Shown here in pieces: positions 1,512 through 56,155 of a stretch of DNA of 64,000 nt. Numbering within the stretch: the stretch's first letter is position 1; each line of letters begins with the position of its first letter. A model generated the notes under the pieces. It was not told the DNA's origin, searched no databases, and worked only from the letters and a program-made list of their open reading frames with translations. The position numbers were made by a program, and so were the translations under genes. Location of the stretch: positions 79 through 64,078 of the forward strand of contig JAKALA010000010.1 of NCBI GenBank assembly GCA_021813325.1. The letters are read 5' to 3'. The stretch is from a bacterium (lineage in GTDB: Bacteria; Verrucomicrobiota; Verrucomicrobiia; Limisphaerales; UBA11358).

Positions 1512-2261
1512 ATGAATCCCACGTCGTGCCTCTCCCGAACCATTTTGCACCGGACCCTTTTGGTCGCGGCCGTGGCACTCCATCTGAGCGCCGCCCATGC
1601 CGCGATGGTTTTCTTCGCCCAAACCGGGCACTGGTATGAAGCCGTCAATGTCCCGGAAGGCATTACCTGGAACGAGGCCTACACAAACGCCATCAACCGC
1701 GGCGGCTATCTCTGCACGATCACCAACGCCAGCGAAAACGATTTTGTCGCCTCCCTGGTCGATATTACCTATTACAGCGGCGTGAGCGTGAACAACGACA
1801 TTCTCGGGCCGTGGCTGGGAGGATTGCGCCATGCCAATCAAAGCACCTGGCAATGGGTCACGGGCGAACCGTTTTCTTATATCAATTGGTATCCCAATCA
1901 ACCGGACGGTTATGGCGGCAGCGAACAGCGCTTGCAGTTTTACCACGGGGCCACCGTCGGCTCGACGTGGGGTGATCATCCCGGTGACCCGATTGCGGGT
2001 TACTCCCTGCCGCGCGGTTACATTGTGGAATATGATTTGATTCCGCGACTTGGTTTGGGCTCGAACACGAGTCAGCCGAGAATTGTCTGGCCGTTGGCGA
2101 CCTTGTCTCAAGGCTGGGTTTTGGAAACCGCCCCGGAATTATCGTCGGACACAAATCTTTGGAAACCGGTGAACACGGATCTCATCCAGACAAACTTGAA
2201 TGCGCTGGTCCTGGCCATTACGAACAAAACCGGCAATGCCTTCTTCCGATTAAGGCAATAA
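1512..2261 (+). CDS. secreted C-type lectin-like domain protein with C-terminal FFRL-type module
   Basis: Signal peptide (LLVAAVALHLSAAHA). CTLD-like pattern TWNEAYTNAINRGGYLCTITNASENDFV...PWLGGL...WQWVTGEPFSYINWYPNQPD...GYIVEY. The tail ends NAFFRLRQ. Confidence 0.7.
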   Translation: MNPTSCLSRTILHRTLLVAAVALHLSAAHAAMVFFAQTGHWYEAVNVPEGITWNEAYTNAINRGGYLCTITNASENDFVASLVDITYYSGVSVNNDILGPWLGGLRHANQSTWQWVTGEPFSYINWYPNQPDGYGGSEQRLQFYHGATVGSTWGDHPGDPIAGYSLPRGYIVEYDLIPRLGLGSNTSQPRIVWPLATLSQGWVLETAPELSSDTNLWKPVNTDLIQTNLNALVLAITNKTGNAFFRLRQ

Positions 2262-2269
2262 TCCGAGGG

Positions 2270-2914
2270 TCACTCCGGCAGAGAAATCCGCCAGACGTTG
2301 GTTGTTGCTCCTGAATCTCTCAACGCGTCACGCAGGCCGGCAGTGGAGTATTGCATCACGCTGCCGTCAGACAGACCGGCGTTGCCCTGATTCCCGTGCA
2401 TCTCCGAACTCCAGCCCACCGCATCGCCGGGAGAAAGTTTGAGAATGCCGTTCTCGGGTTTCCGGGGCGCAGTGAGATTGCGGTCGCCATCCAGCAACAT
2501 TTGAGGATTGCTCTCGCTGGCATCGAGATCGACAAAATAACTGAGATTGCGATTGCGGAGATGGGTAAAAGTCACGGCCGCACTTCGATTATCCGCCGGG
2601 CAAATCAAAATTTTCGGTGTGGAAAGTTCGTTGGACATGACCTGAAAATAGCGGAACGTGTCCGCCCCTGTCGGCACGCCATGCGTGTTGAGGACTAACA
2701 TCGGATATTTGTCATCGTGGTCTCCTTCCCAGATGCGAAAAGCCAGGCCGCATTGTTTCAGGTTATTGGCGCAATTGATGCGCTGGGCTTTGCGCTTGGC
2801 GCTGGCCAGCGCTGGCAAAAGCATGGCCGCCAGAATGGCCACCACGGCAATAACCATCAACAAGGCCACCAAAGTAAAACCAGATCCCGAGGAGCGCCTG
2901 TAGGAGAGGTTCAT
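2270..2914 (-). CDS. prepilin-type N-terminal cleavage/methylation domain protein, H-X9-DG (DUF1559-like) family
   Basis: Leader [12 protein letters not shown]|[48 protein letters not shown]-terminal [12 protein letters not shown] fits H-X9-DG. Start taken at the internal ATG (cat 2912-2914); the ORF extends to 2941. Confidence 0.85.
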
Positions 2915-3072
2915 AGGCGCAATATGAACCGCGCCGGACAATTTTCAAGTCATTCCTGGACCGAATCCAATCACGGCGTCCATTCAGGCCGCTTAATTTT
3001 TCGCTTTACCTTTCGCCTGAAACTGTTTGGCTGTAACCGTATCCAACACCTCAAAGGGAATTTTCCAAAGCT

Positions 3073-5969: not shown

Positions 5970-8900
5970 TCAATCCACCGGAATGATCTTGGCGGCGTTC
6001 AAGGTCACCGGCCCGATCAGGCCGGATTCGAGCAGCGGCGAGTTTTTAGTCCAATGATGCCAGGTGGTAAAGGTGAACCGCCCGGTGGGACTGGGCTTGC
6101 CCTCCAAAACCCATTGCGGCCAGGCTTTGAGTTGTTTGCCATTCCATTCCCGGTCTGACGGCAACTGTTCATCGCCGATCAGCCGGTTGGGCCAGAGGTT
6201 CGTCACCTTGATCACCAGCCGGTTGGTTCCGGGCTTGGCCACGCCGGTGAGATTCACGCGGAACGGCGGTTTCCAAAGCACCCCAAAATCGTGGCCGTTC
6301 AGAGACACCTCGGCAAAATTCTTGACCAGGCCAAGGTTCAACCACAACTCGCGACCGGCGGCCAACTGACCGGCGGAAATTTTAATGTCCTTGGTGTAGG
6401 TTGCCGTGCCGGAAAAATAGCGCACGCCCTTGTCCGGATGGTCTGGCCACGAAATCAATTTGTCGAGCGTGACCTCAGCGGGCGCGCCCCAGTTCGGCGG
6501 GAAACTCAGATTCCAAGCGCCACTCACTGCCTGCGGCGCGGGTAAATCGGTCACGTCGGTCTGCCAGGTTTTGCCGGAGGCGCGAGTCAATTCGATTTTT
6601 CCATTGTTCCAAACGGTCACCTCGGGAGCGCCCTTGGCACTTACGCTGATGTCGTAGGGGGAAACGGCTTCGGACAAAGCGGTCCCCGGCAAAGCCAGCG
6701 TCTCGTTTTCATGAACAACGACATGGGCAGGTTGGCCATTGAACACGTAATCCACCCGCAGTTCCTTGCGGCTGTCCGGCACCGGATCGCGTCCGAAGAC
6801 TTCATTGTTGGCGGCAATATGCCGACGCCCGCCCGCGACCAAATCCGCGAGCTTCGTCGTCACATCCATGCCGCCGGCGGTATTCACAGCTCCGTAGATG
6901 GCATGTTTGATTTCCAATTTGCCGGCATCCGCCAATTGAGCATCAAACTGGCCGTGAGCCGAAACAAAATGATCTGCCACATTGGCCGCCTGGCGGAAGA
7001 CCACAAAAACCGAACCCGCCGGGTCAAAATCGAGCGACACGGCAGTGCGTCCGTCTTTGGCGCTCCAAACCGGCGCCGGCTTCATTTCTCCAGTGTCGGG
7101 ATACCACAATTCCGGCACTTTGCCAGTGACGCGGAAGGTGCATTGAGCCGAATCAAATTGATGCCGTTGATTCGAAACGAAATAGATGTCCGCGTCGCCC
7201 GTCATCCGATGGGTGTAGGCGAGCCGCGAATGTGTGTCGCCCGAATGAAATTCAAAGTCGGGCTTCAGGTTTTGCGTCGCAAAAATCTCCTCCAACGACT
7301 GGCCCCAGACAACGCGACCCCGGCCGCACGCGTTCTCGCGCACATTCTTGCCGTCACATTTGCCCCAGAGTTCGGCGGCCATGGTTTTCACCTGCGCATC
7401 GGATTGCGGAAAGTTCTCCAAACTGGGCGAATGCTCCGGGCGCGGACCGATCACCGTGGCCCCAGCTTGAACCAGATCGCGCACACAGCGCATCATCGGA
7501 GGCGTCATGTTGATGTCATTGGGCGGAAGCACCAGCGCCGCGTAACTGGCGCCGCTGGGCAAAGTGATGCGCCCATTTTTAACCGTGGCGCCGTGCAACA
7601 ACACATCGGCATTGATGGCGTCGTAATCGTAGCCCGCTGGCATTTTGGGATTGCCCAAACGCATTTCCACCGGCGCGCTTTCGCCGGTGAAGTAGGCGAC
7701 ATCGGCCACGGCCCGGCCTTGCTGTAGCAGGAATTCGCAACGCGAAATGTAATCAATCCAAGCCTTGCCCTGATGCCACCACGTTTCCGTGCGCTCGAAA
7801 TGGAAACCCCATTGGCCCATCGTCATGCCCGGCCAACGGTTGGTCCACGGCTGCATGGCGTAACGATGGAAAATGTAACGATTCAATCCATCGCAGAACA
7901 TCAGATCGCCCAGCGCCTTGAGCGCATACGGATCGTTTTGCCAGCGACCGGCATCGGGCGCGGCCGTGAACGATTCCGCGCCCACGATGGTTTTGCCATA
8001 AATGTGCGCGATGGACGCGGCCATTTTGACGGAAGGATGCCCCTGGCTGCCGGTCCAAAACTCGCCCATCACCACATCCGCCGGCGCGCCGCACTGGAGC
8101 GATTCAAACGGCCCGGTGTAGGGTTCCACGGCATTCTTCAAACCGTGCTGACGACAAAGCTCGGCGAAATGCCCGAAATAATTATCCGCAAACAAATCCG
8201 CTATCGTCCGGCGCATGTCCCAGAGAAAACGCTCGGTCACTTCCGGACTGTCCACCACGCGACCGGTGAACGTGGGCAAAAACTTCAGCGGATCATACCC
8301 GCGACGGCGCTGGAATTCCGCGCGGAACGCTTCCGTCCAGTCCTGCGGCCCCACTTCATAGCTGTCGATGAGCGAAGTATTGAGCGCCTTGCCCGCGAGC
8401 GGCCCGATGTCATCCAAAACTTTTTGCATGAACCCATCCCAATGCGCATCCAGCGCGGCCTTGCTGAATTTGTCGCATTCCAGTCCTTCGCCTTCTTTGG
8501 GAGCGGGATGGTTGTTTACTCCGGTGGGCGTATAGCCAAGCCGTAAAATCGCCCAGTTGCCCGCCGGCACATCCCAGGTCAAATGACCATCGGCAGACAT
8601 CTTGGAAGTGAGATCCACAACCTCATCGTGCTGAATCACCGGTCCGCCCGCCGGGGTGCCGTTCAGCGTGGGACTGACAAAGGTTTGCCGGGCGGACGTT
8701 CGAATCATGGATTGGATATGCGCCATGTCATCGGCATTGGCCGGGAACGTCAGCGTTTCGCCTTCCTCGGCAGTTGCGGTGCCCGGCTTGCCATCAATGG
8801 TGAAATCCACGCGCAACTGTTTCACGTGTCCGAATGCCGGATCCCCGCCCATTTCGCCGTTGCCAACGGGAATGCTGAATTGCCCGGCGTTCACAAATTG

Positions 8901-9536
8901 CAGCACTTTTGCCTTCACGTCCGCTTCGGCGGCGCCATCTTCAGCTTCGTAAACAGCCTTTTTAATTTCCAGTTTGCCCTGGGCACCTCCTGATTTATTT
9001 AACGGTTTAACCGGCGTCGGAATTTTAAACGCCAGCACGGCCACGTCGCGATAGTAGCCGAGCGTCACCGGCGGTTGCGGCAACGCTTCGTGAAACTGAG
9101 TCGGACCGGCCACATGCACCTCGCTGGCGGTGAGTCGTTGCATGGCGTTGGTCACGGTATTCCAAGGTCCACCGCTGCTGGACCAGCCGGCGCAATTCTC
9201 CACGCACAGCTCCAGCCCCAGCCGGTTGGCTTCCTGCACGGCGTATTTGAAATCCTCGCGCCATTCGGGACTCAGGAACGGCACCGGACCGCGCGGAATT
9301 TCGCAGTCCACATTCACGATGGTCGCGCCGCCCAGCCCAATTTGTTTCATGGCCTCCAGATCGGCATGAATGCCTTCCTTGGTAATATTTCCGTTCATCC
9401 AGTGCCACCAGGTTTGCGGCTTGGCGGAATCCGGCGGCGTTTGAAAACCGGATTCCAACGAATCCGCCGCTGCGGCTGAAACAGTGAGAACGAGGCCCAA
9501 CGCAATGGAGCCAGACAATAATTGGGATGATTTCAT
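5970..9536 (-). CDS. large secreted glycoside hydrolase (GH106-like / alpha-L-rhamnosidase-type fold; family tentative)
   Basis: Signal peptide MKSSQLLSGSIALGLVLTVSAAAA. Motif PQTWWHWMNGNITKEGIHADLEAMKQIGLGGATIV and C-terminal jelly-roll FAEVSLNGHDFGVLWKPPFRVNLTG...VKVTNLWPNRLIGD. Start set at the internal ATG (cat 9534-9536) that exposes the signal peptide; the ORF extends to 9647. Confidence 0.8.
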   Translation of the reverse strand: MKSSQLLSGSIALGLVLTVSAAAADSLESGFQTPPDSAKPQTWWHWMNGNITKEGIHADLEAMKQIGLGGATIVNVDCEIPRGPVPFLSPEWREDFKYAVQEANRLGLELCVENCAGWSSSGGPWNTVTNAMQRLTASEVHVAGPTQFHEALPQPPVTLGYYRDVAVLAFKIPTPVKPLNKSGGAQGKLEIKKAVYEAEDGAAEADVKAKVLQFVNAGQFSIPVGNGEMGGDPAFGHVKQLRVDFTIDGKPGTATAEEGETLTFPANADDMAHIQSMIRTSARQTFVSPTLNGTPAGGPVIQHDEVVDLTSKMSADGHLTWDVPAGNWAILRLGYTPTGVNNHPAPKEGEGLECDKFSKAALDAHWDGFMQKVLDDIGPLAGKALNTSLIDSYEVGPQDWTEAFRAEFQRRRGYDPLKFLPTFTGRVVDSPEVTERFLWDMRRTIADLFADNYFGHFAELCRQHGLKNAVEPYTGPFESLQCGAPADVVMGEFWTGSQGHPSVKMAASIAHIYGKTIVGAESFTAAPDAGRWQNDPYALKALGDLMFCDGLNRYIFHRYAMQPWTNRWPGMTMGQWGFHFERTETWWHQGKAWIDYISRCEFLLQQGRAVADVAYFTGESAPVEMRLGNPKMPAGYDYDAINADVLLHGATVKNGRITLPSGASYAALVLPPNDINMTPPMMRCVRDLVQAGATVIGPRPEHSPSLENFPQSDAQVKTMAAELWGKCDGKNVRENACGRGRVVWGQSLEEIFATQNLKPDFEFHSGDTHSRLAYTHRMTGDADIYFVSNQRHQFDSAQCTFRVTGKVPELWYPDTGEMKPAPVWSAKDGRTAVSLDFDPAGSVFVVFRQAANVADHFVSAHGQFDAQLADAGKLEIKHAIYGAVNTAGGMDVTTKLADLVAGGRRHIAANNEVFGRDPVPDSRKELRVDYVFNGQPAHVVVHENETLALPGTALSEAVSPYDISVSAKGAPEVTVWNNGKIELTRASGKTWQTDVTDLPAPQAVSGAWNLSFPPNWGAPAEVTLDKLISWPDHPDKGVRYFSGTATYTKDIKISAGQLAAGRELWLNLGLVKNFAEVSLNGHDFGVLWKPPFRVNLTGVAKPGTNRLVIKVTNLWPNRLIGDEQLPSDREWNGKQLKAWPQWVLEGKPSPTGRFTFTTWHHWTKNSPLLESGLIGPVTLNAAKIIPVD

Positions 9537-10116
9537 GATCGTTGCCAGACCGGCCAAATGCTTTCCTGCCGAACGATGGAACTCATGCTCGTTCGCAGGC
9601 ACCGGCCAAGGATTACAATTTGGATGGCGGCAGCTTAACGGCGGCACCTCCCCGCGTCCATACCTTGATGCGGTGACATGATTATCACCGAAACTGGTTA
9701 TGCTTCAAATTATTCCCGCCATGGCTGTTTGAATGCGGCTCCGCAGGATGCCTCAAGACTGAATGGATAACAGCCAACCGATGACGTGGTCAAATCCGGC
9801 TTGAAATTCTTGAAGGCTTGACAAATCGACTGTTTCCGGAGAACAAATCCTCCCCGGGAAGAATTTCTTTCGAGGCGTTGCAATGATTGATTTTTCCCAC
9901 GGCGTTTGAAGCGCCGGAACGCGACTCTGAGCGACTTATAAATCTCACCGGGCATCGGTGTTTACGAAGTCCACTGGCAGCGTTACCCCACCCGGCTTGC
10001 AACGCCCCGCCGCCGCAAAAAGCCCGATGGAATGATATTGCGGGCTGCAAACACCCGAAAAACTGAGCCGCAGACTTGGAAAATTCCCGCTGTTTCCGAT
10101 TGTCAAAAATCCCGGC

Positions 10117-10812
10117 ATGGATCAGATTATGACCATAAACCAAATTTCTTTTATGTATTATCCGCGCAAATTCTATTCCTGCAAACGCGAGATCCAGTTT
10201 CCCCGGCGCTCCGCGGTGCTCGCTCTCTGGCTGGTCACCGGGGTTTTTCTTTCCCTCGCCCTGGGCACGGTCCAGGCCCAGGTGAATATTTTCATGAGAA
10301 TCGGTGGCCAGGCGGCCCCCATGGGACAAACGCAAACAACCCCAAAACTGGCGGGTCCTTCAACGGATGAGCAATACCCTGGTTGGATTCAGTTGAACAG
10401 CGTATCCCACGGGGTTAGCCGGGCAATAAGTATCAGTTCGGGCGGGACTTCAGCCAGCAATCCAAGTTTTAGTGATGTCTCCAGTTCCAAATCCACCGAT
10501 GTCACCACCCCTTTGCTTAATCTTTTAACTTGCGGCGGAACCGTTTCGGTCACGCAGCCAATTGATTACGTCACGATTGATTTCCGCAACAACAACTTCA
10601 CGCAGACACCGCAGACATTCTACCGGATTGAGCTTCAAGGCGTGTCTTTTACAGGCATGTCCACATCTGGATGGACCGGCGGCACTCCCAGCGACTCTTT
10701 TTCGCTAACTTATCAAAAAATTACGTGGTCTTACGTTTCGTATGATGCGACCGGCAAGGCTTCAACCCCAATCACAAAAGGTTGGGACGTTTCGGCGAAT
10801 AAGGCCCTGTAA
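10117..10812 (+). CDS. Hcp-fold (T6SS tube protein-like) protein with predicted Sec signal peptide
   Basis: RRSAVLALWLVTGVFLSLALGTVQA|QVNIFMRIGG...GWIQLNSVSHGVS...SDVSSSKSTDVTTPLLNLLTCGG...FYRIELQGVSFTGMSTSG...DSFSLTYQKITWSYVSYDATGKASTPITKGWDVSANKA. By eye this aligns block by block with Hcp1 (MFIKIGD / IDVLAWSWGMS / DLSFTKYIDKSTPNLMMACSSG / ITLKEVLVSSVSTGG / VTLNFAQVQVDY...YGWNIRQN). The exact start is uncertain (ATGs at 10117, 10129, 10153). Confidence 0.75.
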   Translation: MDQIMTINQISFMYYPRKFYSCKREIQFPRRSAVLALWLVTGVFLSLALGTVQAQVNIFMRIGGQAAPMGQTQTTPKLAGPSTDEQYPGWIQLNSVSHGVSRAISISSGGTSASNPSFSDVSSSKSTDVTTPLLNLLTCGGTVSVTQPIDYVTIDFRNNNFTQTPQTFYRIELQGVSFTGMSTSGWTGGTPSDSFSLTYQKITWSYVSYDATGKASTPITKGWDVSANKAL

Positions 10813-10839
10813 CACTTTTGTCCGTCGTCTGGTCCTCGC

Positions 10840-11781
10840 ATGACACTGGATCCGCGCATGCACTCCGTCCTCGACAACACCGCCGCCAGGATTTTCAAAA
10901 TGATGTTGGTCGCGCTGCTGCTGACCGTGGCCATCCGCCCGGCCGATGGTGCCAACATGTATTTGAAAATCAGCGGCATCACCGGCGGTTCCACGGCGCC
11001 AGATCATGGGGGATGGATTGACGTTTACTCCATGTCTCATGGTATTTCAGTGCAATCCGGTGGCAAAACTTACATCTCCACCCAGGGCCAGGTAAACCTC
11101 CAGGTAGCCTTGGACCAAAGCCTGCCCCTGCTCTTCAATTTATTAGGCAAGGGAAACGCGATCAGCGATGTGGGAATTGATTTCACCCAGAATACGCAGG
11201 TCGCCACCCAGTTCTATCATCTCGCCCTGACCAACGTTTTTCTGGCTTCCGTCGTTGTGAACGCCGACACGGGAGGAATGCCGGTCGTTTCGCTCAGCCT
11301 GGCTTACGCGAAAGTCGCCTGGACTTACACCCAGGTTGACGGCTCGGGCATGCCGGCTTACACCACCATCTGGAATGTCACCCAATACTCCGGCTCCACC
11401 AACATCGTGTCCCTGGACAGCGACCATGACGGCCTGCCTGATGCCTGGGAAATAAAGTATTTCAACACGCTCGCCTACGGACCAAATGACGACCCTGACC
11501 ATGACGGCCTGTCCAATTATCAGGAATACATTGCCGGCACCAACCCCAACAGCCCCGATTCGGTGCTTCACGTTTCCTCGCCCAGCTTTGACACGGGCAC
11601 GGGACAATATCGCATGAGCTGGAGCAGTGTCGCCGGAAGAACCTACACCATTTATAGTTCACCCAATGTTTCAGGCCCTTACATCCCGCTCATGACCGTG
11701 CCTTCCGCCGGAGACGGCAACACTTCCATTAACCTTCCCAATTTGCCGGGCAACCAGTTTTACCGTGTGGGCTTGCAGTAA
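10840..11781 (+). CDS. Hcp-fold domain fused to thrombospondin-type-3-like Ca-binding repeats and a C-terminal FYRV module
   Basis: Hydrophobic leader MMLVALLLTVAIRPADGA. Then MYLKISGITGGSTAPDHGGWIDVYSMSHGIS...DQSLPLLFNLLGKGN...FYHLALTNVFLASVVVNADTGG...VSLSLAYAKVAWTYTQVDGSG (Hcp pattern). Then DSDHDGLPDAWE...DDPDHDGLSNYQEYIAGTNP, with the tail ...YRMSWSSVAGRTYTIYSS...GNQFYRVGLQ. Confidence 0.75.
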   Translation: MTLDPRMHSVLDNTAARIFKMMLVALLLTVAIRPADGANMYLKISGITGGSTAPDHGGWIDVYSMSHGISVQSGGKTYISTQGQVNLQVALDQSLPLLFNLLGKGNAISDVGIDFTQNTQVATQFYHLALTNVFLASVVVNADTGGMPVVSLSLAYAKVAWTYTQVDGSGMPAYTTIWNVTQYSGSTNIVSLDSDHDGLPDAWEIKYFNTLAYGPNDDPDHDGLSNYQEYIAGTNPNSPDSVLHVSSPSFDTGTGQYRMSWSSVAGRTYTIYSSPNVSGPYIPLMTVPSAGDGNTSINLPNLPGNQFYRVGLQ

Positions 11782-11836: not shown

Positions 11837-12877
11837 ATGACCTCGGGCCTGAAGGCATCATGCGCTCATCCATTTATGAGAGCTCCTATTTTCCTGCGAC
11901 TTTTCGCCACCATTGCCACCGGTAGCGTATTAGCTTTGAGTCTTCATCAGACTGCCCAAGCGGACTCCGTTGAAAAATCCGGCAACCCGCTTTTCCCCGG
12001 CTGGTATGCCGATCCCGAGGCCAAGGTTTTTGGCCACGAATACTGGATTTACCCGACCTACTCCGACCGCTACGAAAAACAGACCTTCTTCGATGCGTTT
12101 TCTTCGCCTGATCTGGTGCATTGGCGGTATCACTCGCACGTGTTCGGCACCAATGAAATCGCCTGGGCACATCGCGCCATGTGGGCGCCTGCGGTTGCTG
12201 AAAACAACGGACGTTACTTTTTCTTTTTTGCCGCCAATGACATTCAAAACGACCAGCAAATCGGCGGGATCGGCGTGGCCGTGGCAGACCAGCCCGGTGG
12301 ACCATTTAAAGATTATCTCGGCAAACCGCTGATTGATAAATTTCACAATGGCGCCCAGCCCATTGATCCGTTTGTGTTCCGCGATGATGACGGCCAGTTT
12401 TATCTCATTTACGGCGGCTGGCAGCATTGCAACATCTGCCGGTTGAAAAATGATTTCACCGGCGTCGAACCCTTCGCCGATGGCACCGAGTTCAAGGAAA
12501 TTACGCCCAAAGGCTACGTCGAAGGTTCGGTGATGTTTAAACGCGGTGGCAAATACTATTTCATGTGGTCGGAAGGCGGCTGGACCGGACCGGATTATTC
12601 CGTCGCCTATGCCATGGCGGACGCGCCGACCGGGCCGTTTACGCGCATTGGGAAAATTCTCCAGCAAGATCCCACGGTCGCCACCGGTGCCGGCCATCAT
12701 TCCGTCATCAAAATTCCCGGCCAGGAAGAATACTACATCGTCTATCATCGCCGTCCCCTCGGCGAAACCGATGGCAACCATCGCGTCACCTGCATTGATC
12801 GGATGGAATTTGACGAGCACGGCCTGATCAAACCCGTGAAAATCACATTTGAAGGCGTCGCGGCTCACCAGCTCTGA
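11837..12877 (+). CDS. glycoside hydrolase family 43 (beta-xylosidase/arabinofuranosidase type)
   Basis: Signal peptide, then NPLFPGWYADPE, MWAPAV, IDPFVFRDDDGQFYLIYGG, VEGSVMFKRGGKYYFMWSEG and HHSVIK. These are classic GH43 five-bladed propeller motifs. An alternative start is at 11876. Confidence 0.9.
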   Translation: MTSGLKASCAHPFMRAPIFLRLFATIATGSVLALSLHQTAQADSVEKSGNPLFPGWYADPEAKVFGHEYWIYPTYSDRYEKQTFFDAFSSPDLVHWRYHSHVFGTNEIAWAHRAMWAPAVAENNGRYFFFFAANDIQNDQQIGGIGVAVADQPGGPFKDYLGKPLIDKFHNGAQPIDPFVFRDDDGQFYLIYGGWQHCNICRLKNDFTGVEPFADGTEFKEITPKGYVEGSVMFKRGGKYYFMWSEGGWTGPDYSVAYAMADAPTGPFTRIGKILQQDPTVATGAGHHSVIKIPGQEEYYIVYHRRPLGETDGNHRVTCIDRMEFDEHGLIKPVKITFEGVAAHQL

Positions 12878-22288: not shown

Positions 22289-25200
22289 ATGACTGAAATT
22301 CCGAAAGCCTACGAACCGCAGTCCGTCGAGGACAAGTGGTATGACTTCTGGCAGAAGCAAGGCTGCTTCACCGCCGATCCCAAGTCTGCGAAACCGGCGT
22401 ATTCCATCGTCATTCCGCCGCCGAACGTCACTGGGATGCTTCACATGGGGCACGTCTTGAATAACACCATTCAAGACATCCTCAGCCGCAAGGCGCGCAT
22501 GGACGGCAAGGAAGTGCTCTGGTTGCCCGGCACTGATCACGCTGGCATCGCCACGCAGGTGCAGGTCGAGAAGGCGCTGAAGAAGGAAGAGAAGAAAACC
22601 AAATACGATTTAGGCCGCGAGGAATTTCTCAAGCGCGTCTGGGCGTGGAAGGAAGAAAAAGGCGGCATCATCATCAACCAGCTCAAGAAGCTCGGCGCGA
22701 GCTGCGATTGGACGCGCGAACGGTTCACGATGGACCCGGAATATTCCCGCTGCGTGCAGAAAGTGTTCGTCGAACTTTACAAGAAAGGCCTCATCTACCG
22801 CGGCAAACGCATGGTGAACTGGTGTCCCGTTTCGCAAACCGCGCTTTCCGACGAGGAAGTGGAAATGAAGCCGCAGAAAGGTTTCATGTATCATTTTCGC
22901 GTGGAAGCGGTCCAGGCGGATGGTTCACCAGTGAAAGTAGCGGCGACGCCCTCGTCGCAGTCCGCCGTATCCGCGCCGCCTCCGTCGCGTCCCACAGAAA
23001 CGCCGAGCGTGGGCGCTCGGGATACCGTCGGCGACGAGGGCGTCGCAGCTACCGGCTGCGGCCCCGAAATGGACGACGCCGGGCGCCTCTGGTTGACCAT
23101 CGCCACCACGCGTCCCGAAACCATTCCCGGCGACACTGCCGTGGCCGTGAACCCGAAAGACCCGCGCTACGCGCCGCTCATCGGCAAGTTCATTGTGCGG
23201 CCGCTGCCCGCCGAATTGCCGCTGGCGCAGAAGCTTATCCCCATTGTCGGCGACGAGCATGTGGATTTTGCCTTCGGCACCGGCGTGCTCAAGGTCACGC
23301 CCGCGCACGACAAGGCGGACTTCGACATTGGCACGCGCCACCAGCTGCCGCTCATCGAAGTGATCAACGCCGACGGCTCCATGAACGCCCTGGCGGGCGG
23401 GCCACTGGCTGGACTCGATAGATTTAAGGCGCGCAAGGTCGCCGTGGAATTGCTCAAGGAGCAAGGTGCGTTCGTGGAGGAAAAACCTTACGAGAACAAC
23501 GTCGGGTTCAGCCAGCGCGCGGATGTGCCGATTGAACCGCGCTTGAGCGAGCAATGGTTTTTGAAATATCCAGCCGTGGCGCAATCCAAGGCGTGCGTGG
23601 AACAGGAAGATGAGTCGGTGGGACGCTCGCCCCGCCAGTCGAAAATACAATTTCATCCGCAGCGGTGGGCGAAAGTCTATGACCACTGGCTGACGAACAT
23701 TCAGGACTGGTGCATCAGCCGCCAGCTTTGGTGGGGACATCGAATTCCGGTGTGGGAACGAACTTTTGACTGTTTCAGTATTGGTTCTGTTTACACTTCC
23801 GTTTCTGATCTGCTTTCAATCAGCTCAAAAACGCAGGAATTCATCGGCAAAGAATCTTCCGATGTCGTGGTGATAATTGATGGAAAGCAAGTCACTACCG
23901 ACGCCAAAAAACTTTTGGATCTCGGACTTGAGTTGAATAAGACGGACGAAGAGGTGCGCGAAATCAAAGTTCAAGTTTGCACCGTAAACTCAAAAATTAT
24001 TTCAGCGTTGGAACTTGAGCGTTGGGAACAAGACCCCGACGTGCTCGACACGTGGTTCAGTTCGTGGCTGTGGCCGTTCGCCACGATGGGCTGGCCGGAA
24101 CAGACCGCGATGTTGAAGAAATTTTATCCGACCACCGACCTCGTCACCGGGCCGGACATCATTTTCTTCTGGGTAGCGCGCATGATCATGGCCGGCTACG
24201 AGTTCATGGGCACGCCGCAGTTTGCGCTGCCGGACGCCATGCCATTCCGCAACGTCTATTTCACCGGCATCATCCGCGACAAGCAGGGCCGCAAGATGTC
24301 CAAGACGCTGGGTAATTCACCCGATCCGCTGGAGCTTATTGCCAAATATGGCGCCGATGCGCTCCGCTTTGGCACGATGCGCAGCGCGCCGCTTGGGCAG
24401 GACGTGCTGTTCGACGAGAAGGACGTGGAACTGGGCCGCAATTTCTGCAACAAGCTTTGGAATGCCTGCCGCTTCCGCCAAATGCAGAGTGGCGGCGACG
24501 CCGCGTCGCCGAATTGCGCCGAGGGCGGCGCAGCCACTTTTGAAGCCGAGATTAATCCCGAGTTGCTCACTTCGGATGACAAGTGGATTCTTCTTCGCCT
24601 GGATCAGGCCATCAAGGAAGTCAGCGAGGCGTTGAACACCTACAATTTCGCGACCGCCGTGCAGGCTCTTTACCGTTTCTTCTGGAGCGAGTATTGCGAC
24701 TGGTATGTCGAGGCGAGCAAGGCGGCGTTCTTTGGCGAAGACGCCAAGCTCAAAGCGAACAAGCTCGCCGTCATTGATTTTGTGCTTGGCAATACCATCC
24801 GCCTGTTTCATCCATTTTTGCCGTTCATCACGGAAGAATTGTGGCACGGCATGGGTTTCAGCCAGGAAATGCCGGAAAATCTCGGCGGCACAACCATCAT
24901 GTTTGCGCCGTGGCCCAAACCGTTCAGTGCGGAAGAACGCGATTATTTTGGACTTGATGCCGCAGCGGATCAAATTGCCACAGCCAAATATGAACTCGTC
25001 GGGCTCGGCCGCAATTTGCGTCGCGAATTAAAACTCGACCCGGCGAAGAAGTTGAAATTCATCCTCAGACCGGCGGGCGATCTGGCCGCGTCCGAAGTCG
25101 AAGTGTTGAAATTGTTGCTCAACGCTGAAACGGTGGAAGTGGTTGGAAAAGACTGGTCGCCGGCCAAAGGCACGCCAAGCGCATCGAATGGATTGGGCGA

Positions 25201-25429
25201 AATTTATTTGCCGCTGGAGGGCTTGATTGATCTTGGCGCCGAGAAGGCACGCCTGACAAAGGAACAGGAAAAAATTCAGGCCGAAATTGCCAGGGTGGAA
25301 GAAAAACTGGCGAATCCAAACTTCACGCAAAAAGTTCCCGCCAAGGTGCTGGACGAGCACAAACAGCGCCTCGCCGACTGGCAGACCAAGCTGGCCCAAG
25401 TGAAAACGTCACTCGAAGCGTTGGGCTGA
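22289..25429 (+). CDS. valS: valyl-tRNA synthetase, unusually long (1046 aa) with two in-frame insertions
   Basis: PPPNVTGMLHMGH (HIGH), ATTRPETIPGDTAVAVNPKDPRY (editing domain), ISRQLWWGHRIP, DVLDTWFSSW, KMSKTLGNS (KMSKS) and a C-terminal coiled coil. Confidence 0.95.
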   Translation: MTEIPKAYEPQSVEDKWYDFWQKQGCFTADPKSAKPAYSIVIPPPNVTGMLHMGHVLNNTIQDILSRKARMDGKEVLWLPGTDHAGIATQVQVEKALKKEEKKTKYDLGREEFLKRVWAWKEEKGGIIINQLKKLGASCDWTRERFTMDPEYSRCVQKVFVELYKKGLIYRGKRMVNWCPVSQTALSDEEVEMKPQKGFMYHFRVEAVQADGSPVKVAATPSSQSAVSAPPPSRPTETPSVGARDTVGDEGVAATGCGPEMDDAGRLWLTIATTRPETIPGDTAVAVNPKDPRYAPLIGKFIVRPLPAELPLAQKLIPIVGDEHVDFAFGTGVLKVTPAHDKADFDIGTRHQLPLIEVINADGSMNALAGGPLAGLDRFKARKVAVELLKEQGAFVEEKPYENNVGFSQRADVPIEPRLSEQWFLKYPAVAQSKACVEQEDESVGRSPRQSKIQFHPQRWAKVYDHWLTNIQDWCISRQLWWGHRIPVWERTFDCFSIGSVYTSVSDLLSISSKTQEFIGKESSDVVVIIDGKQVTTDAKKLLDLGLELNKTDEEVREIKVQVCTVNSKIISALELERWEQDPDVLDTWFSSWLWPFATMGWPEQTAMLKKFYPTTDLVTGPDIIFFWVARMIMAGYEFMGTPQFALPDAMPFRNVYFTGIIRDKQGRKMSKTLGNSPDPLELIAKYGADALRFGTMRSAPLGQDVLFDEKDVELGRNFCNKLWNACRFRQMQSGGDAASPNCAEGGAATFEAEINPELLTSDDKWILLRLDQAIKEVSEALNTYNFATAVQALYRFFWSEYCDWYVEASKAAFFGEDAKLKANKLAVIDFVLGNTIRLFHPFLPFITEELWHGMGFSQEMPENLGGTTIMFAPWPKPFSAEERDYFGLDAAADQIATAKYELVGLGRNLRRELKLDPAKKLKFILRPAGDLAASEVEVLKLLLNAETVEVVGKDWSPAKGTPSASNGLGEIYLPLEGLIDLGAEKARLTKEQEKIQAEIARVEEKLANPNFTQKVPAKVLDEHKQRLADWQTKLAQVKTSLEALG

Positions 25430-29133: not shown

Positions 29134-29314
29134 CCTCTTCGCGAACGATGGTGTTTTGCCGCCGGCGGAACGTGGCCGTTTCATGCCACGGGACATTTGT
29201 CAGCCGGCAGGTTAGTTATCCATGATATTCAATATGCCTGTTTTGGTTTCAACCGTTCGCCTGCCTCGAGGTTTGCGCCGATCAGGCGGTGCGCGATTTT
29301 TTTTCAACGGCCCG

Positions 29315-32300
29315 ATGCTTTTGACGCGCAGATGGCGCCTGACCGGATTGGTGTTGTTGCTGCTGGGGCAAATCTCGCTTCGGGCCTTTACCTCAAACGA
29401 GGTGCGCACGGTGGTGAGTTCCTTCAATTCCAATTTCCTGTCGGTCAGCGGCACCAACGGTTACATCAAGGATACGCAAACGGGCGGCGTGGCCTATTTC
29501 TGGGGACAGGCGGAGATGATCGAATGTTACCTCGACGCCTACGAGTGGAGTGGCGATCCGGTTTACAAAGGAATGATCACCAATCTGCTCAACGGTTTTA
29601 TAGTCAATAACGGCTCTTCCTGGTCGTATAATGAATACAACGACGACATTCTCTGGGCGGTGATCGCGTTTGCGCGGGGCGGCGTGGATTGCGGAAACTC
29701 CGGTTATTGCGCCATCGCCAAGGCCAATTTCGACATGGTCTATGCGCGGGGATGGGATTCTAAACTCGGCGGCGGATTATATTGGCGCGACAGTGACAGA
29801 GCTTCCAAGAATGCGTGTGTCAACGGCCCGGGCGCCATCGCGGCGTGTTTGCTGTATCAGGTTTACAACGACCCCGGTTATCTCAGCAAAGCCAGCGCCA
29901 TCTACGCCTGGGAACGCTCGGTGTTGTTCAATCCGGGCAGCGGCGCCATTTACGACAGCATTGGAACGAATGGTTCAATCAGCTATTGGGCCAGCACCTA
30001 CAATCAGGGCACTTTCATTGGCGCGGCCAATTTTCTCAATCAAACCAACGATGCGTTGCTGGCCGCCAATTTTACCATGACGGGCTTGTCCAGCGGCGGC
30101 CTTCTTCCGGAGTATGGCATCGCGGGCAACAATTCGGGATTCAACGCCATTTTTCTGCGCTGGATGGTTCGCTTCATGCACGATCGCGGCCTGAAAAGTT
30201 ATTACGAACCCTGGCTGCAACTCAATGCCACCGCTGCCTGGAACATTCGCCGTTCCGACAACTTATCCTGGTGCCAGTGGCAGCATCCGACCCCGGCCGG
30301 AACCAATTTTTATGCGTGGGACTGTATTTCCTCGTTTTCAGCCCTGCTCGCGGCGGATCCCACGGAAGGCGCTTCGCCCGGGGCCGTGCCCACGGATGAA
30401 ATCGGCTATTGGCCGTTGGATGCTCAAAGCGGCAGCTCTGCGGTGGATATTTCAGGCAATGGCAACAATGCCGCGCTGACCGGGCCCATTTGGAATTCAG
30501 CCGGACGTTTTAAGAATTGTCTTACCTTCAATGGAACGAACAGCTACGCGCAAATCCAGCGTCCGGTGGCGAATGACTTCAGCCTCGCATTTTGGGTGAA
30601 AACCACGCAGAACACGGCCGTGGGCCAGTGGTATAACGGAGCTGCGCTGGTGGATGGCGATGCCTCCGGCCCGGCGAATGATTTCGGCACGGGATTGGTC
30701 GGCGGTCGGTTTGCATTCGGTGTGGGCAACCCGGACACCACGGTTCTTTCGGCGACCGCCATTAACAACGGCGTCTGGCATTATTGTGTGGCCACTCGTC
30801 AGGAGGCCACCGGCGTCATTTGTGTCTATGTGGATGGCAGTTTGCAAGGGACGAAGACCGCAACCAAAAACACGCTGTCAGCCACGTCAAATTTGTATTT
30901 CGGACGCTACGCCTCCGGGGGCGGATTTTTCAACGGCAGCCTGGATGAGGTCAGGATTTTTGACCGGACCTTGAGCGGTATCGAAGTGGCCGCGCTGTAT
31001 GCCAGTTGTCAGCAGGCTCCCCCGACGGCGCCGGCTAATTTCACCGCCACGCCCGTCAACGGCGTGGTGCGATTGAACTGGTGGTCGTCGCCCGCCGCGA
31101 CGAGCTACAACGTGAAGCGGTCGCTCTATGCGGGCGGACCTTACACCACGATGACCAACGTGGTTTCGGCCAGTTTTGCGGATGCGGGCATCGTCGCCAA
31201 TCGGACCTATTATTACGTGGTTTCGGCGGTGAACGTGGCGGGCGAAGGTCCGGATTCCGCCCCGGCCAGAGCCAACACTTCCTCGCTGGTTGTCAACCTG
31301 AAGGCGGAGGCGATTTCCGGGGTCGCCAGCGGCGCGCAGATTTCGGTGTGGCCGGATGTCAGCGGCAACGGTTACAACGCGGTTCAGCCCATGTCTGTGA
31401 ACCAGCCGACTTATGCGGCGAACGCCATCAATGGCCGGCCGGCGGTTCACTTCAACGCGGCAAACAGCTCTTGCCTGTGGCTGCTGCGCCCGGTGCAGGA
31501 TGACTTTACGATCATGCTGGTTTTTCAAAGCACGCAGGGCGTCAACACCGGCGTTGCGTTTTGGAATGGCGCCGGGCTGGTAAACGGTGAACAGAGCGGC
31601 GCCGTCAATGATTTCGGCATGTCGATCAACGCGGATGGTCGCGTTCTGGCCGGCACGGGCAATCCGGATAAAACCGCGGTTTCCGCTCCCGGTTTCAATG
31701 ACGGGCGGCCGCACATCGTCACGTTCAAGCGCACCATGAGCACCGGCGTCATCATGCTCTACGTCGATGGAGTAGTGGTTGGAGTGGCGACCGCCGCGAG
31801 CAAGCAGTCGTTGACGGCGCCCAACGTTTTGACCCTCGGGGCGCAGGCGGTTTTGAATAATTTTCTGACCGGCGATATTGCCGAGGTGCAGATTTATAAT
31901 TCGCCCCTGTCGGACCTTGACCAGATCAACCTGGAAAATTCGCTGAAATGCAAATACGCGATCGGGGCGGCAGCCGCATTGACGGCGCCAGTCGGTTTGG
32001 CGGGTTCAGCCGGCAATCGCCAGATTACACTCACCTGGCCGTTGATCGCCGGCGCCAGCGGTTACGATCTGTGGCGCTCCACCAACAACGGTAACGCTTA
32101 CGAGCTGGCCGCCGCCGGTGTGAATGCGGGCGGTTACACCGACACCCATGCCGCCAATGGCCTGGTGAACTACTACAAAGTGGCGGCGCTTGACGCCTGC
32201 GGTGAAGGCGCGAATTCGGCGGCGCTGGGAGTGCTGTTGCCGTTGCCGTCGCTGAGTATGAATGTGGGTTCCGGATCACTGGCCTTGAGCTGGCCGGATT

Positions 32301-40550: not shown

Positions 40551-40576
40551 TTGTGGTTGGTCAGTTGCGTAAACAC

Positions 40577-42502: not shown

Positions 42503-42503
42503 T

Positions 42504-43472: not shown

Positions 43473-43473
43473 A

Positions 43474-44259: not shown

Positions 44260-44311
44260 CTGATAAAAATCCTCACTTGAACTGCGCCATTTTGACGAAC
44301 CTTAAATTCCC

Positions 44312-48221: not shown

Positions 48222-48337
48222 AAATGAATTTGCATAGCTGGTTCAACAAGTTGGCTGGAGCTGTGAAGGATCCGGCCGCCGCGGTGGAACTTTTCCAAAG
48301 TTCACGCCGGGGCAGGTTATTTTCCCACTGCGCGACC

Positions 48338-56099: not shown

Positions 56100-56155
56100 T
56101 TCCTAAGCGGAATTGCGTGAACGGGTTTAGAAAACTTTAACGATTGATTTATACT

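What the first reader, a model, noticed from the sequence alone, without database searches (positions are those of the whole stretch)
10117..11781. Tandem Hcp-fold proteins that appear Sec-exported, one fused to Ca-binding repeats, with no T6SS context
Both ORFs align by eye, block by block, with the T6SS tube protein Hcp. Compare IFMRIGG / MYLKISG with MFIKIGD, GWIQLNSVSHGVS / GWIDVYSMSHGIS with IDVLAWSWGMS, and the TPLLNLL / LPLLFNLL helix, through to FSLTYQKITWSY / LSLAYAKVAWTY. Canonical Hcp is leaderless and leaves the cytoplasm through the T6SS. Here each Hcp domain is preceded by a hydrophobic leader, and in the first ORF the predicted AXA cleavage (VQA|QVNIF) lands exactly at the Hcp N-terminus. 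The second protein continues into DxDxDG thrombospondin-type-3-like repeats and into the same C-terminal FYRV module found on clearly secreted enzymes in this window. That argues for an extracytoplasmic location. Flanking genes are glycoside hydrolases, not tss genes. This suggests that ring- or tube-forming Hcp proteins have been recruited to a Sec-dependent, T6SS-independent surface or periplasmic role.
Basis: partly seen in the sequence, partly recalled or inferred. Interest (0 to 1): 0.7.

Follow-up and report, generated by a model that had tools for sequence, protein, structure and literature searches.

The report
Signal-peptide-bearing Hcp-fold protein pair
Two neighbouring genes in an uncultured Verrucomicrobiota bacterium encode proteins with the fold of the type VI secretion tube protein Hcp, but each carries a conserved export signal and sits far from any type VI genes, so this well-known fold seems to have a second, undescribed job outside the cytoplasm.

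Summary
ORF1 (10117-10812) and ORF2 (10840-11781) both match Pfam T6SS_HCP at E about 1e-21. Their structure models match only solved Hcp structures.

Each Hcp domain follows a charged, hydrophobic, small-residue leader that ends exactly at Hcp strand 1. That leader is kept in about 45 homologues. Most family-B members have no start codon at the domain boundary. One "leaderless" gene call has the leader in frame upstream. ORF2 adds two bacterial TSP3 calcium-binding repeats and an unclassified C-terminal beta-sandwich.

No tss gene lies in the 64 kb window or within 10 kb of the pair in about a dozen related loci. In 10 of 10 related loci the pair follows a ~850 aa MFS/spermidine-synthase-like membrane protein. 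In the window that gene is deleted, leaving an ~85 bp remnant at 9917-10000. Both Hcp genes still look constrained.

Leader-bearing Hcp homologues are common in metagenomes, and two more distant loci again show short-plus-long pairs. Some large proteins carry six tandem Hcp domains. I found no paper describing any of this.

Export, ring assembly, function and genome-wide absence of a T6SS remain untested.

The parts
9917..10000 (+). Remnant (~85 bp, with a stop and an indel) of the 5' end of the MFS/spermidine-synthase-like membrane protein gene that precedes the Hcp pair in related loci
   Evidence: tblastn of seven orthologues hits window 9960-9998, reading VYEVHWQRYPTRL against the conserved VYEV[IV]WQRYL[AT]RL (E 5e-4 to 3e-3 in this 700 bp search). 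L001 extends the match to 9894-9998 across a stop codon. DNA alignment A3 confirms it. No other copy exists in the 64 kb window.
10117..10812 (+). ORF1, 'HcpA': leader plus a single Hcp-fold domain. The likely start is ATG 10129 (MTINQ...), which matches the family start MN[LP]QN
   Evidence: Pfam T6SS_HCP E 7.7e-21. PDB 4w64 E 1.2e-15. 22 homologues at 45-57% identity. The AF2 model is low confidence (pLDDT 57.7), but its Foldseek hits are all Hcp.
10117..10278 (+). ORF1 leader: a long basic n-region, a hydrophobic core at aa 32-51, and a c-region TVQA with predicted signal peptidase I cleavage after A54
   Evidence: Direct reading. Leader anatomy across the family. AF2 predicts a helix at aa 30-50.
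10279..10809 (+). ORF1 predicted mature Hcp domain (QVNIFMRIGG...), with a family-specific 13-residue insertion in the strand 1-2 loop
10840..11781 (+). ORF2, 'HcpB': leader, Hcp domain, two TSP3 repeats and a C-terminal beta-sandwich
   Evidence: Pfam T6SS_HCP E 4.8e-21 and TSP3_bac E 2.9e-08. About 27 homologues share this architecture. AF2 pLDDT is 75.7 overall, and 76-94 per 10-residue block across most of the Hcp domain. Foldseek top hits are Hcp.
10840..10953 (+). ORF2 leader: n-region with R/K, hydrophobic core MLVALLLTVAI, c-region RPADGA (cleavage after ADG or ADGA)
   Evidence: AF2 predicts a helix at aa 6-29.
10957..11376 (+). ORF2 Hcp-fold domain (aa 40-179)
   Evidence: It is 33% identical to the ORF1 domain, E 4e-18.
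11416..11550 (+). Two DxDxDG loop-helix calcium-binding repeats (bacterial TSP3 type), aa 193-237
   Evidence: Pfam PF18884, two stretches. Invariant D/G columns in alignment A2. AF2 places helices at aa 201-208 and 226-232 after each loop.
11557..11778 (+). C-terminal six-strand beta-sandwich ending in QFYRVGLQ. No curated family covers it
   Evidence: AF2 strands at aa 245-312. Conserved in family B. The same module follows the long Hcp in L013 and L025 without TSP3. No Pfam hit.
11837..12877 (+). GH43 glycoside hydrolase. It recurs near the pair, but membership of the module is uncertain
   Evidence: Pfam GH43 E 3.6e-53. GH43 lies directly downstream in L008, L009 and L010, and within about 4.5 kb in L017 and L019.

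Best explanation
ORF1 and ORF2 are a co-transcribed pair of paralogous Hcp-fold proteins that act outside the cytoplasm and independently of a type VI secretion system.

Proposed mechanism:
1. Each protein is made with an N-terminal Sec-type signal peptide.
2. Signal peptidase I cuts it directly in front of Hcp strand 1, so the mature N-terminus matches that of a leaderless Hcp.
3. In the periplasm or on the cell surface the two paralogues assemble into an Hcp-type oligomer, most likely a ring or short stack.
4. HcpA would be the plain subunit. HcpB would add a calcium-binding TSP3 linker and a C-terminal beta-sandwich of a type that many exported proteins of this organism also end with. This extension probably serves for retention or docking.

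In relatives the pair usually follows, and is probably co-expressed with, a strongly conserved polytopic MFS/spermidine-synthase-like membrane protein. That gene has been deleted in this genome, while both Hcp genes remain intact and constrained.

Shown here: Hcp homology and fold, leader conservation, pair conservation, non-T6SS context, and the deletion.

Inferred: Sec export and cleavage, oligomerisation, location, and function.
For: Fold and family:
- Pfam E about 1e-21 for both ORFs.
- Sequence hits to solved Hcp structures.
- Foldseek returns only Hcp chains or Hcp-containing entries, with TM-score to target up to 0.84.

Leader:
- The three-part anatomy ends 4-13 residues before strand 1 in 20 of 23 family-A and 23 of 28 family-B sequences. 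The rest are fragments, short gene calls or sequences the boundary pattern did not match.
- The leader sequence varies while the mature part is conserved.
- An MRIGG-start gene call has the leader in frame upstream.
- Most family-B members lack any Met at the boundary.

Context:
- No tss domains among the 30 largest window ORFs.
- No tss domains around the pair in L001-L019.
- The order membrane protein, HcpA, HcpB holds in 10 of 10 related loci with upstream sequence, with gaps of 38-107 bp to the annotated HcpA starts and about 80 bp in L011 counting its in-frame leader.
- A different leader-bearing Hcp pair lies divergently 19 bp from the same membrane protein gene in L025.

Generality:
- 59-67 of 92 nearest single-domain sequences (90 representatives plus the two window proteins) carry leaders.
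- Distant loci L013 and L015 again hold a short plus a long leader-bearing Hcp, in housekeeping context.
- Proteins with six tandem Hcp domains argue that exported relatives keep the hexamer geometry.

Constraint:
- The window proteins are not outliers at positions conserved in 90% or more of the family. They rank 12 of 23 and 5 of 28.
Against: - No signal-peptide predictor was available. Cleavage is inferred from anatomy only.
- The n-region of family A is unusually long, about 25-30 residues.
- NCBIfam TssD scores fall below the cut-off (37 and 47 bits against 58.9), so the proteins are divergent and ring-forming contacts are not guaranteed.
- No multimer model could be run.
- The ORF1 model has low confidence.
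- A T6SS elsewhere in the genome was not excluded. Only 64 kb of a contig of at least 111 kb was seen.
- The link to the membrane protein is not obligate. Five or six close orthologues have no Hcp pair downstream, and the window has the pair without the membrane protein.
- These loci come from a narrow clade, since the membrane proteins are 70-79% identical. Part of the synteny may therefore be inherited rather than selected.
Confidence: 0.62

Rival explanations
1. They are ordinary cytoplasmic T6SS tube proteins. On this view the upstream hydrophobic codons are not translated (true starts at MRIGG and MYLKISG), and a T6SS encoded elsewhere uses them.
For: Both pass the Pfam Hcp threshold. Public pipelines name homologues TssD/Hcp. 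Three family-A gene calls start at MRIGG. The rest of the genome was not searched.
Against: Starting at MRIGG would remove the first half of strand 1 (DIF/NIF), which is conserved and aligns with the Hcp N-terminus. The leader is in frame upstream of an MRIGG call. Most family-B members have no Met at the boundary. The leaders keep signal-peptide anatomy in about 45 sequences. No tss gene lies near the pair in any locus. TIGR03344 scores fall below the cut-off.
Confidence: 0.03
2. The leader is an uncleaved signal anchor. The Hcp domains are then tethered to the inner membrane and face the periplasm, possibly docked on the MFS/SpeE-like protein, rather than being released.
For: Hydrophobic cores are 11-20 residues long with high hydropathy (KD 2-3.3). 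AF2 draws a long helix. The conserved partner is an inner-membrane protein.
Against: Small-residue AxA or AxG motifs sit at a fixed short distance before strand 1 in both families. The same holds in dozens of distant leader-bearing Hcps, which read ...AxA|AVD MFLKIDG. This is the signature of signal peptidase I cleavage.
Confidence: 0.12
3. In this genome the pair is a leftover. After the partner gene was deleted, the two Hcp genes are no longer expressed or useful and are on their way to decay.
For: The partner gene is reduced to an ~85 bp remnant directly upstream. Any promoter in front of the partner may have been lost. No sigma-70-like site on the + strand was found upstream. The window is the only locus of 11 without the partner.
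Against: Both ORFs are intact. They do not deviate unusually at positions conserved in 90% or more of relatives, ranking 12 of 23 and 5 of 28. The leaders, TSP3 aspartates and C-terminal motif are all kept. The consensus promoter scan is not informative for Verrucomicrobiota.
Confidence: 0.1
4. The proteins work as exported monomers or small complexes that serve polysaccharide degradation. They could be a binding or scaffolding pair whose dockerin-like calcium loops and beta-sandwich hold glycoside hydrolases or glycans. No Hcp-type ring would be involved.
For: GH43 lies next to or near the pair in six loci, counting the window. GH2, GH35, GH16, GH3, GH106, sulfatases and acetylesterases are frequent neighbours. 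The two loop-helix calcium motifs resemble a dockerin in layout (the dockerin comparison is from my own knowledge). Similar C-terminal tails occur on a GH76/LamG protein in the window.
Against: These genomes are dense in carbohydrate-active enzymes, so such neighbours are expected by chance. The neighbours vary between loci while the pair stays constant. Pfam reports TSP3 and not dockerin. L013 and L015 pairs sit among housekeeping genes. The six-domain relatives point to ring geometry.
Confidence: 0.1

Closest known systems
T6SS tube protein Hcp / TssD (Pfam PF05638; NCBIfam TIGR03344; e.g. Acinetobacter baumannii Hcp1 4w64, Pseudomonas aeruginosa Hcp1 1y12)
   Same: Same sequence family and fold. 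Pfam E is about 1e-21, identity is 20-28%, and TM-score to target is 0.65-0.84. The predicted mature N-terminus lines up with the Hcp N-terminus.
   Different: The window proteins have a conserved N-terminal export leader. They have no tss neighbours. They occur as a fixed pair of paralogues and usually follow an MFS/SpeE-like membrane protein. Their TIGR03344 scores fall below the cut-off. One paralogue has a non-toxin C-terminal extension. Canonical Hcp has no signal sequence and leaves the cell through the T6SS (established knowledge).
Extended or 'evolved' Hcp proteins with C-terminal toxin domains (Hcp-ET; recalled from the T6SS literature, not re-read here)
   Same: An Hcp domain followed by a C-terminal extension in one polypeptide, as in ORF2.
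   Different: The ORF2 extension is TSP3 calcium repeats plus a beta-sandwich with no toxin family hit. No immunity-like gene follows. A leader is present. There is no T6SS context.
Bacterial TSP3-repeat calcium-binding secreted proteins (Pfam PF18884; NCBIfam Amuc_1099 family, MtsD)
   Same: ORF2 aa 193-237 carries two such repeats. It gives weak local hits to the Amuc_1099 and MtsD models over that stretch.
   Different: Those similarities are confined to the repeats. The scores (23 bits against a cut-off of 50, and 12.8 against 800) are far below membership.
Fused MFS/spermidine synthase membrane proteins (NCBIfam NF037959; PRK03612-type polyamine aminopropyltransferase)
   Same: The usual upstream partner scores 63-70 bits against a cut-off of 40. 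It has a SpeE-fold domain, E 1e-10 to solved spermidine synthases.
   Different: It is about 850 aa long with roughly 12-13 hydrophobic segments. Its active-site motifs are altered: GMGTG in place of GGGDG, and SEPSN in place of DS[ST]DP. It is absent from this window except for a remnant.
Phage and contractile-injection-system tail tube proteins
   Same: Same general tube-protein fold class as Hcp (established knowledge).
   Different: The closest matches found here are cellular Hcp structures. No phage or contractile-system genes were seen nearby. Those tube proteins are not Sec substrates.

Membership tests
T6SS tube protein Hcp/TssD | Match to Pfam T6SS_HCP (PF05638) above the gathering score | tested here: met
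   75.2 and 75.8 bits against a cut-off of 23.5.
T6SS tube protein Hcp/TssD | Match to NCBIfam TIGR03344 (TssD) above its cut-off | tested here: not met
   37.4 and 46.6 bits against a cut-off of 58.9.
T6SS tube protein Hcp/TssD | Hcp beta-barrel fold | tested here: met
   The top Foldseek hits are all Hcp chains or Hcp-containing entries. E is 3e-11 (ORF2) and 1.5e-11 (ORF1), and TM-score to target is up to 0.84. The ORF1 model has low confidence.
T6SS tube protein Hcp/TssD | Leaderless cytoplasmic protein of about 160-170 aa | tested here: not met
   Leaders of 38-54 residues with signal-peptide anatomy are conserved across both families. Canonical representatives of 158-165 aa have 0-5 residues before strand 1.
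T6SS tube protein Hcp/TssD | Encoded with, or in a genome that has, tssB/C, vgrG, tssM and the other core genes | tested here: inconclusive
   None found in the 64 kb window or within 10 kb of the pair in about a dozen loci. Whole genomes could not be scanned.
T6SS tube protein Hcp/TssD | Hexameric ring that stacks into a tube inside a sheath | not testable with these tools
   No multimer prediction was available. The only hint is indirect: relatives with six tandem Hcp domains.
Sec signal peptide cleaved by signal peptidase I | Basic n-region, hydrophobic core of 10-20 residues, and small residues at positions -3 and -1 | tested here: met
   ORF1...PRRSAVLALWLVTGVFLSLALGTVQA|Q. ORF2...RIFKMMLVALLLTVAIRPADG(A)|. 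The same anatomy is seen in 43 of 51 family sequences. This is a heuristic; SignalP was not available and cleavage is not shown.
Lipoprotein signal peptide (signal peptidase II) | Lipobox [LVI][ASTVI][GAS]C | tested here: not met
   There is no Cys in either window leader c-region. Many family-B members have a conserved Cys, but it is preceded by N, K or R, which does not fit a lipobox.
Tat signal peptide | Conserved twin-arginine motif S/T-R-R-x-F-L-K | tested here: not met
   ORF1 has PRRSAVL, but homologues have a single R (NRAVV, GRIAR) at that place.
Hcp with C-terminal toxin (Hcp-ET) | Recognisable toxin domain after Hcp, with an adjacent immunity gene | tested here: not met
   The extension is TSP3 repeats plus a beta-sandwich with no family hit. 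The next gene is GH43.
Bacterial TSP3 repeat proteins (PF18884) | DxDxDG-type repeats above the gathering score | tested here: met
   33.8 bits against a cut-off of 25, two stretches.

The most novel reading that the evidence does not exclude
Leader-bearing Hcp proteins form a widespread, undescribed class of exported ring or tube builders. They occur as short-plus-long paralogue pairs. In Planctomycetes-like proteins they also occur as single chains of six Hcp domains, which would make one covalent hexamer. On this reading they assemble a T6SS-independent structure in the periplasm or on the surface. In this verrucomicrobial clade that structure would work together with a polytopic MFS/SpeE-like membrane protein.
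Probability: 0.35. Interest if true: 0.85.

Novelty: new variant of a known kind. Interest (0 to 1): 0.65.

Why it matters
Hcp is treated as the hallmark of type VI secretion. Finding an Hcp gene is often read as evidence for a T6SS, and its lack of a signal peptide is part of the definition of that pathway.

A conserved family of Hcp-fold proteins that carries export signals and lives outside any T6SS context would have three consequences:
- The fold would have a second, extracytoplasmic use.
- Annotation pipelines would be shown to mislabel these genes as TssD.
- There would be a concrete system for asking what an Hcp ring does without a sheath. That system is two small genes, often preceded by a membrane partner.

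The six-domain relatives would make the ring hypothesis directly testable.

Tried and rejected
- **Leaderless starts at MRIGG or MYLKISG.** Rejected on comparative grounds.
- **Tat export.** The RR in ORF1 is not conserved.
- **Lipoprotein.** There is no lipobox.
- **A second copy of the membrane partner in the window.** None found, only the remnant.
- **Obligate coupling of the partner and the pair.** Rejected. Five or six close partner orthologues have no pair downstream.
- **Decay of the window genes.** There is no excess of changes at conserved positions.
- **The C-terminal module as a known domain.** No Pfam hit, and profile hits to other window proteins are only weak.
- **RNA elements.** No Rfam hit in the window.
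- **Promoter and terminator scan.** Uninformative.
- **Membrane topology of the partner from hydropathy.** Too crude to place the SpeE-like domain.
- **Literature.** Eight full-text searches found no description of signal-peptide-bearing or multi-domain Hcp.
- **Names for distant leader-bearing clusters.** All are metagenomic and unnamed.
- **Organism labels.** The 'Bifidobacterium' and 'Dongiaceae' labels of two MAG contigs are probably binning errors, although I did not verify this. The window's ValRS points to Verrucomicrobiota/Limisphaerales.
Full report
**What is in the sequence**

Two ORFs lie head to tail on the + strand: ORF1 at 10117-10812 (231 aa) and ORF2 at 10840-11781 (313 aa), 27 bp apart. 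A GH106 rhamnosidase lies upstream on the other strand (5970-9647), and a GH43 follows at 11837-12877.

Both ORFs match Pfam T6SS_HCP well above threshold. ORF1 scores 75.2 bits (E 7.7e-21) and ORF2 scores 75.8 bits (E 4.8e-21), against a cut-off of 23.5. Both hit solved Hcp structures by sequence alone, with 4w64 at E 1.2e-15 and 3.2e-11. ORF2 also has two bacterial TSP3 repeats (E 2.9e-08).

An AlphaFold2 model of ORF2 (mean pLDDT 75.7) has four parts:
- an N-terminal helix (aa 6-29);
- an Hcp-type beta domain (aa 40-179, with 10-residue blocks at 76-94 pLDDT over most of it);
- two loop-helix calcium motifs;
- a six-strand C-terminal beta-sandwich (aa 245-312).

Its Foldseek matches are Hcp chains or entries that contain Hcp, with TM-score to target 0.7-0.84. 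The ORF1 model is poor (pLDDT 57.7), yet it also retrieves only Hcp. The two Hcp domains are 33% identical (E 4e-18). ORF1 has a 13-residue insertion in the first hairpin.

**The leaders**

ORF1 reads ...KREIQFPRRSAVLALWLVTGVFLSLALGTVQA|QVNIFMRIGG. ORF2 reads ...AARIFKMMLVALLLTVAIRPADGA|NMYLKISG.

I collected 22 homologues of ORF1 (family A) and about 27 of ORF2 (family B). In 20 of 23 family-A and 23 of 28 family-B sequences the Hcp domain follows the same kind of leader:
- a net-positive stretch;
- an 11-residue core of Kyte-Doolittle hydropathy 2.0-3.3;
- a c-region of 4-13 residues that ends in AxA or AxG directly before strand 1.

The remaining sequences are fragments, short gene calls or cases the boundary pattern did not match. 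The leader sequence itself is poorly conserved while the mature part is well conserved. That is how signal peptides behave.

One gene call that starts at MRIGG (P0017) has the whole leader in frame upstream in its contig. At least that 'leaderless' call is therefore a gene-caller choice. Most family-B members have no Met at the domain boundary at all. Starting ORF1 at MRIGG would also cut off the conserved DIF/NIF start of strand 1.

A Tat signal is unlikely, because the RR of ORF1 is not conserved. There is no lipobox. I had no SignalP, so this rests on anatomy and conservation, not on a trained predictor.

**Context**

Pfam scans of the 30 largest ORFs of the window show no T6SS component. 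They show housekeeping genes, glycoside hydrolases, a ThrE exporter and a PilM-type cluster. The window's ValRS is closest to Verrucomicrobiota/Limisphaerales sequences, with at most 79% identity.

Among 185,579 species genomes only three carry the family. One is a Limisphaerales MAG.

In every related locus with upstream sequence the pair is preceded on the same strand by a gene for an 818-877 aa protein. These loci are L001, L002, L003, L004-7, L008, L009, L011, L017, L019 and an ENA contig, which makes 10 of 10. The gaps to the annotated HcpA starts are 38-107 bp, and about 80 bp in L011 counting its in-frame leader. The protein has about 12-13 hydrophobic segments and a spermidine-synthase-fold domain. 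NCBIfam places it in 'fused MFS/spermidine synthase'.

Its SpeE-like domain carries GMGTG where spermidine synthases have GGGDG, and SEPSN where they have DS[ST]DP. From what is known of that family, this argues against ordinary aminopropyl transfer. These proteins are 70-79% identical to each other, which is better conserved than the Hcp proteins (45-57%).

No tss gene appears within 10 kb of the pair in any locus.

**The window is the exception**

It has no copy of the membrane protein gene. Directly upstream of ORF1, at about 9917-10000, lies a remnant of the gene's 5' end. It reads VYEVHWQRYPTRL against the conserved VYEV[IV]WQRYL[AT]RL. The longer alignment holds a stop and an indel, and the DNA alignment confirms the match.

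The locus is otherwise syntenic with relatives. GH43 lies downstream as in L008-L010, and ThrE and GH43 lie nearby as in L017. The partner gene was therefore deleted here.

The two Hcp genes do not look decayed. At positions where 90% or more of the relatives agree, the window proteins deviate no more than typical members, ranking 12 of 23 and 5 of 28.

**How tight is the link to the membrane protein?**

I ran the reciprocal test with a metagenome scan using the partner alignment. Among close orthologues with at least 700 bp downstream:
- eight have the Hcp pair downstream;
- five or six do not;
- one locus (L025) has a different, divergently transcribed pair 19 bp upstream of the partner.

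The L025 pair is a 175 aa leader-bearing Hcp plus a 261 aa leader-bearing Hcp with a C-terminal sandwich and no TSP3.

The association is thus frequent and occurs in two arrangements, which argues for a functional link. It is not obligate in either direction. Part of it may also reflect shared descent within a narrow clade.

**Wider picture**

A profile search of 1.84 billion representative proteins gave 8,477 hits at E <= 0.001.

I aligned 90 of the single-domain representatives from the best 150 hits with the two window proteins. Of these 92 sequences, 59-67 have clean leaders of the type M-K-...-hydrophobic-...AxA|AVD-MFLKIDGIxGES. Twenty-two are ordinary leaderless proteins of 154-179 aa. 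This ratio is biased upward, because my profile included leader columns.

In a crude neighbour-joining tree the leader-bearing sequences mostly cluster apart from the leaderless ones.

Two distant leader-bearing representatives again sit as a short-plus-long pair among housekeeping genes (L013/L014 and L015/L016). The long member in L013 carries the same C-terminal sandwich as ORF2, joined by a proline-rich linker instead of TSP3.

Some 30 of the best hits are proteins of 1,000-2,200 aa with exactly six tandem Hcp domains. Several begin with the LE.R.LLA-type N-terminal motif that I know from planctomycete secreted proteins. Six is the number of subunits in an Hcp ring. This is the best indirect sign that non-canonical relatives keep the ring geometry, although these proteins are not close relatives of ORF1 or ORF2.

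All of these clusters are metagenomic and unnamed. Eight full-text searches found no paper on signal-peptide-bearing or multi-domain Hcp. The papers retrieved are T6SS studies and secretion-system reviews.

**Most likely mechanism**

- Shown: two paralogous Hcp-fold proteins with conserved export-type leaders, co-directional and nearly abutting, outside any T6SS context.
- Inferred: Sec export; signal peptidase I cleavage at VQA|Q and ADG(A)|; assembly of the mature proteins into an Hcp-type oligomer in the periplasm or at the surface.

In that oligomer HcpA would be the plain subunit. HcpB would contribute a calcium-stabilised linker and a beta-sandwich that probably serves for retention or docking. 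The sandwich has no curated family. Its resemblance to the C-terminal tails of other exported proteins in the window is clear at pattern level but weak by profile.

What the assembly does is unknown. My best guess is a structural or carrier role in the envelope, linked in relatives to the MFS/SpeE-like membrane protein.

**Rivals**

- An uncleaved signal anchor (0.12).
- A leftover pair after loss of the partner (0.10).
- A non-ring role in glycan degradation, suggested by the many glycoside hydrolase neighbours (0.10).
- A normal cytoplasmic T6SS Hcp with a mis-called start (0.03).

**Comparison with what is known**

By homology these are members of the Hcp superfamily: they match PF05638 and have the fold. 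They fail three features of the functional family 'T6SS tube protein TssD'. They fall below the TIGR03344 cut-off, they are not leaderless, and they have no T6SS neighbourhood. Ring formation and genome-wide T6SS absence could not be tested.

They should not be annotated as TssD, as some pipelines now do. I rate this a new variant of a known kind. The fold is known, while the export mode, the pairing, the partner gene and the context are new.

**Limits**

- No signal-peptide predictor, no multimer modelling and no whole-genome scan were available.
- The ORF1 model has low confidence.
- The family-B alignment is shallow.
- All relatives are uncultured.

Noticed in passing
window 9917-10000 (+): A pseudogenised ~85 bp remnant of the 5' end of an MFS/spermidine-synthase-like membrane protein gene. 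The intact gene precedes the Hcp pair in all related loci, so this marks a deletion of about 2.4 kb in this genome.
   Followed up: yes
P0060-P0064, P0066, P0068, P0069, P0071 and others: About 30 large proteins (1,000-2,164 aa) from metagenomes carry exactly six tandem Hcp domains, which could make a single-chain hexameric ring. Several start with a planctomycete-type LE.R.LLA N-terminal motif. Versions with 2, 3, 4 and 5 domains also exist. I found no literature on them.
   Followed up: partly
L013 10001-11379; L015 10001-12077; L025 547-1872: More distant leader-bearing Hcp genes also come as a short-plus-long pair outside T6SS context. In L013 and L025 the long member ends in the same type of beta-sandwich as ORF2 but has no TSP3 repeats. 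In L015 the long member instead has an N-terminal extension before its Hcp domain, and the next gene ends in a PEP-CTERM-like tail.
   Followed up: partly
L003 7252-9813 and orthologues (alignment A5): The conserved partner protein has a spermidine-synthase fold, but with GMGTG in place of GGGDG and SEPSN in place of DS[ST]DP. It is probably not a normal aminopropyltransferase. It is 70-79% identical between loci.
   Followed up: partly
window 1512-2261, 29222-32455, 48218-50308, 52623-56099: Several leader-bearing proteins, including a GH76/LamG protein, end in a ~70 aa module of pattern ...W.S..G..Y.......W........[FY][FY]R[VLI]. Pfam does not cover it. It may be a lineage-typical C-terminal domain of exported proteins.
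   Followed up: partly
window 40553-46657 (+) and 2270-2941 (-): A PilM-type gene is followed by three unassigned ORFs, one of which contains TPR repeats. This looks like a type IV pilus-like assembly cluster. A separate ORF has a weak prepilin N-methylation motif.
   Followed up: no
window 56141-64000 (+): A very long open reading frame of more than 2,600 codons runs off the end of the window. Automatic ORF listing does not show it. It is probably a giant surface protein.
   Followed up: no
window 22289-25429 (+): The valyl-tRNA synthetase is 1,046 aa long. The Pfam catalytic-domain match spans residues 16-707 for a 414-position model, and many homologues align over only about 45% of it. This suggests a large lineage-specific insertion.
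   Followed up: no
L001 and L002: Two public MAG contigs carrying this verrucomicrobial-type cassette are labelled Bifidobacterium sp. and Dongiaceae. These are probably binning or labelling errors.
   Followed up: no
family B alignment A2, c-region of the leader: About 60% of family-B members have a conserved Cys two to four residues before Hcp strand 1 (GNCA, GRCV, GKCM). It is not a lipobox. It could form an intermolecular disulfide in the mature protein. The window ORF2 lacks it.
   Followed up: no
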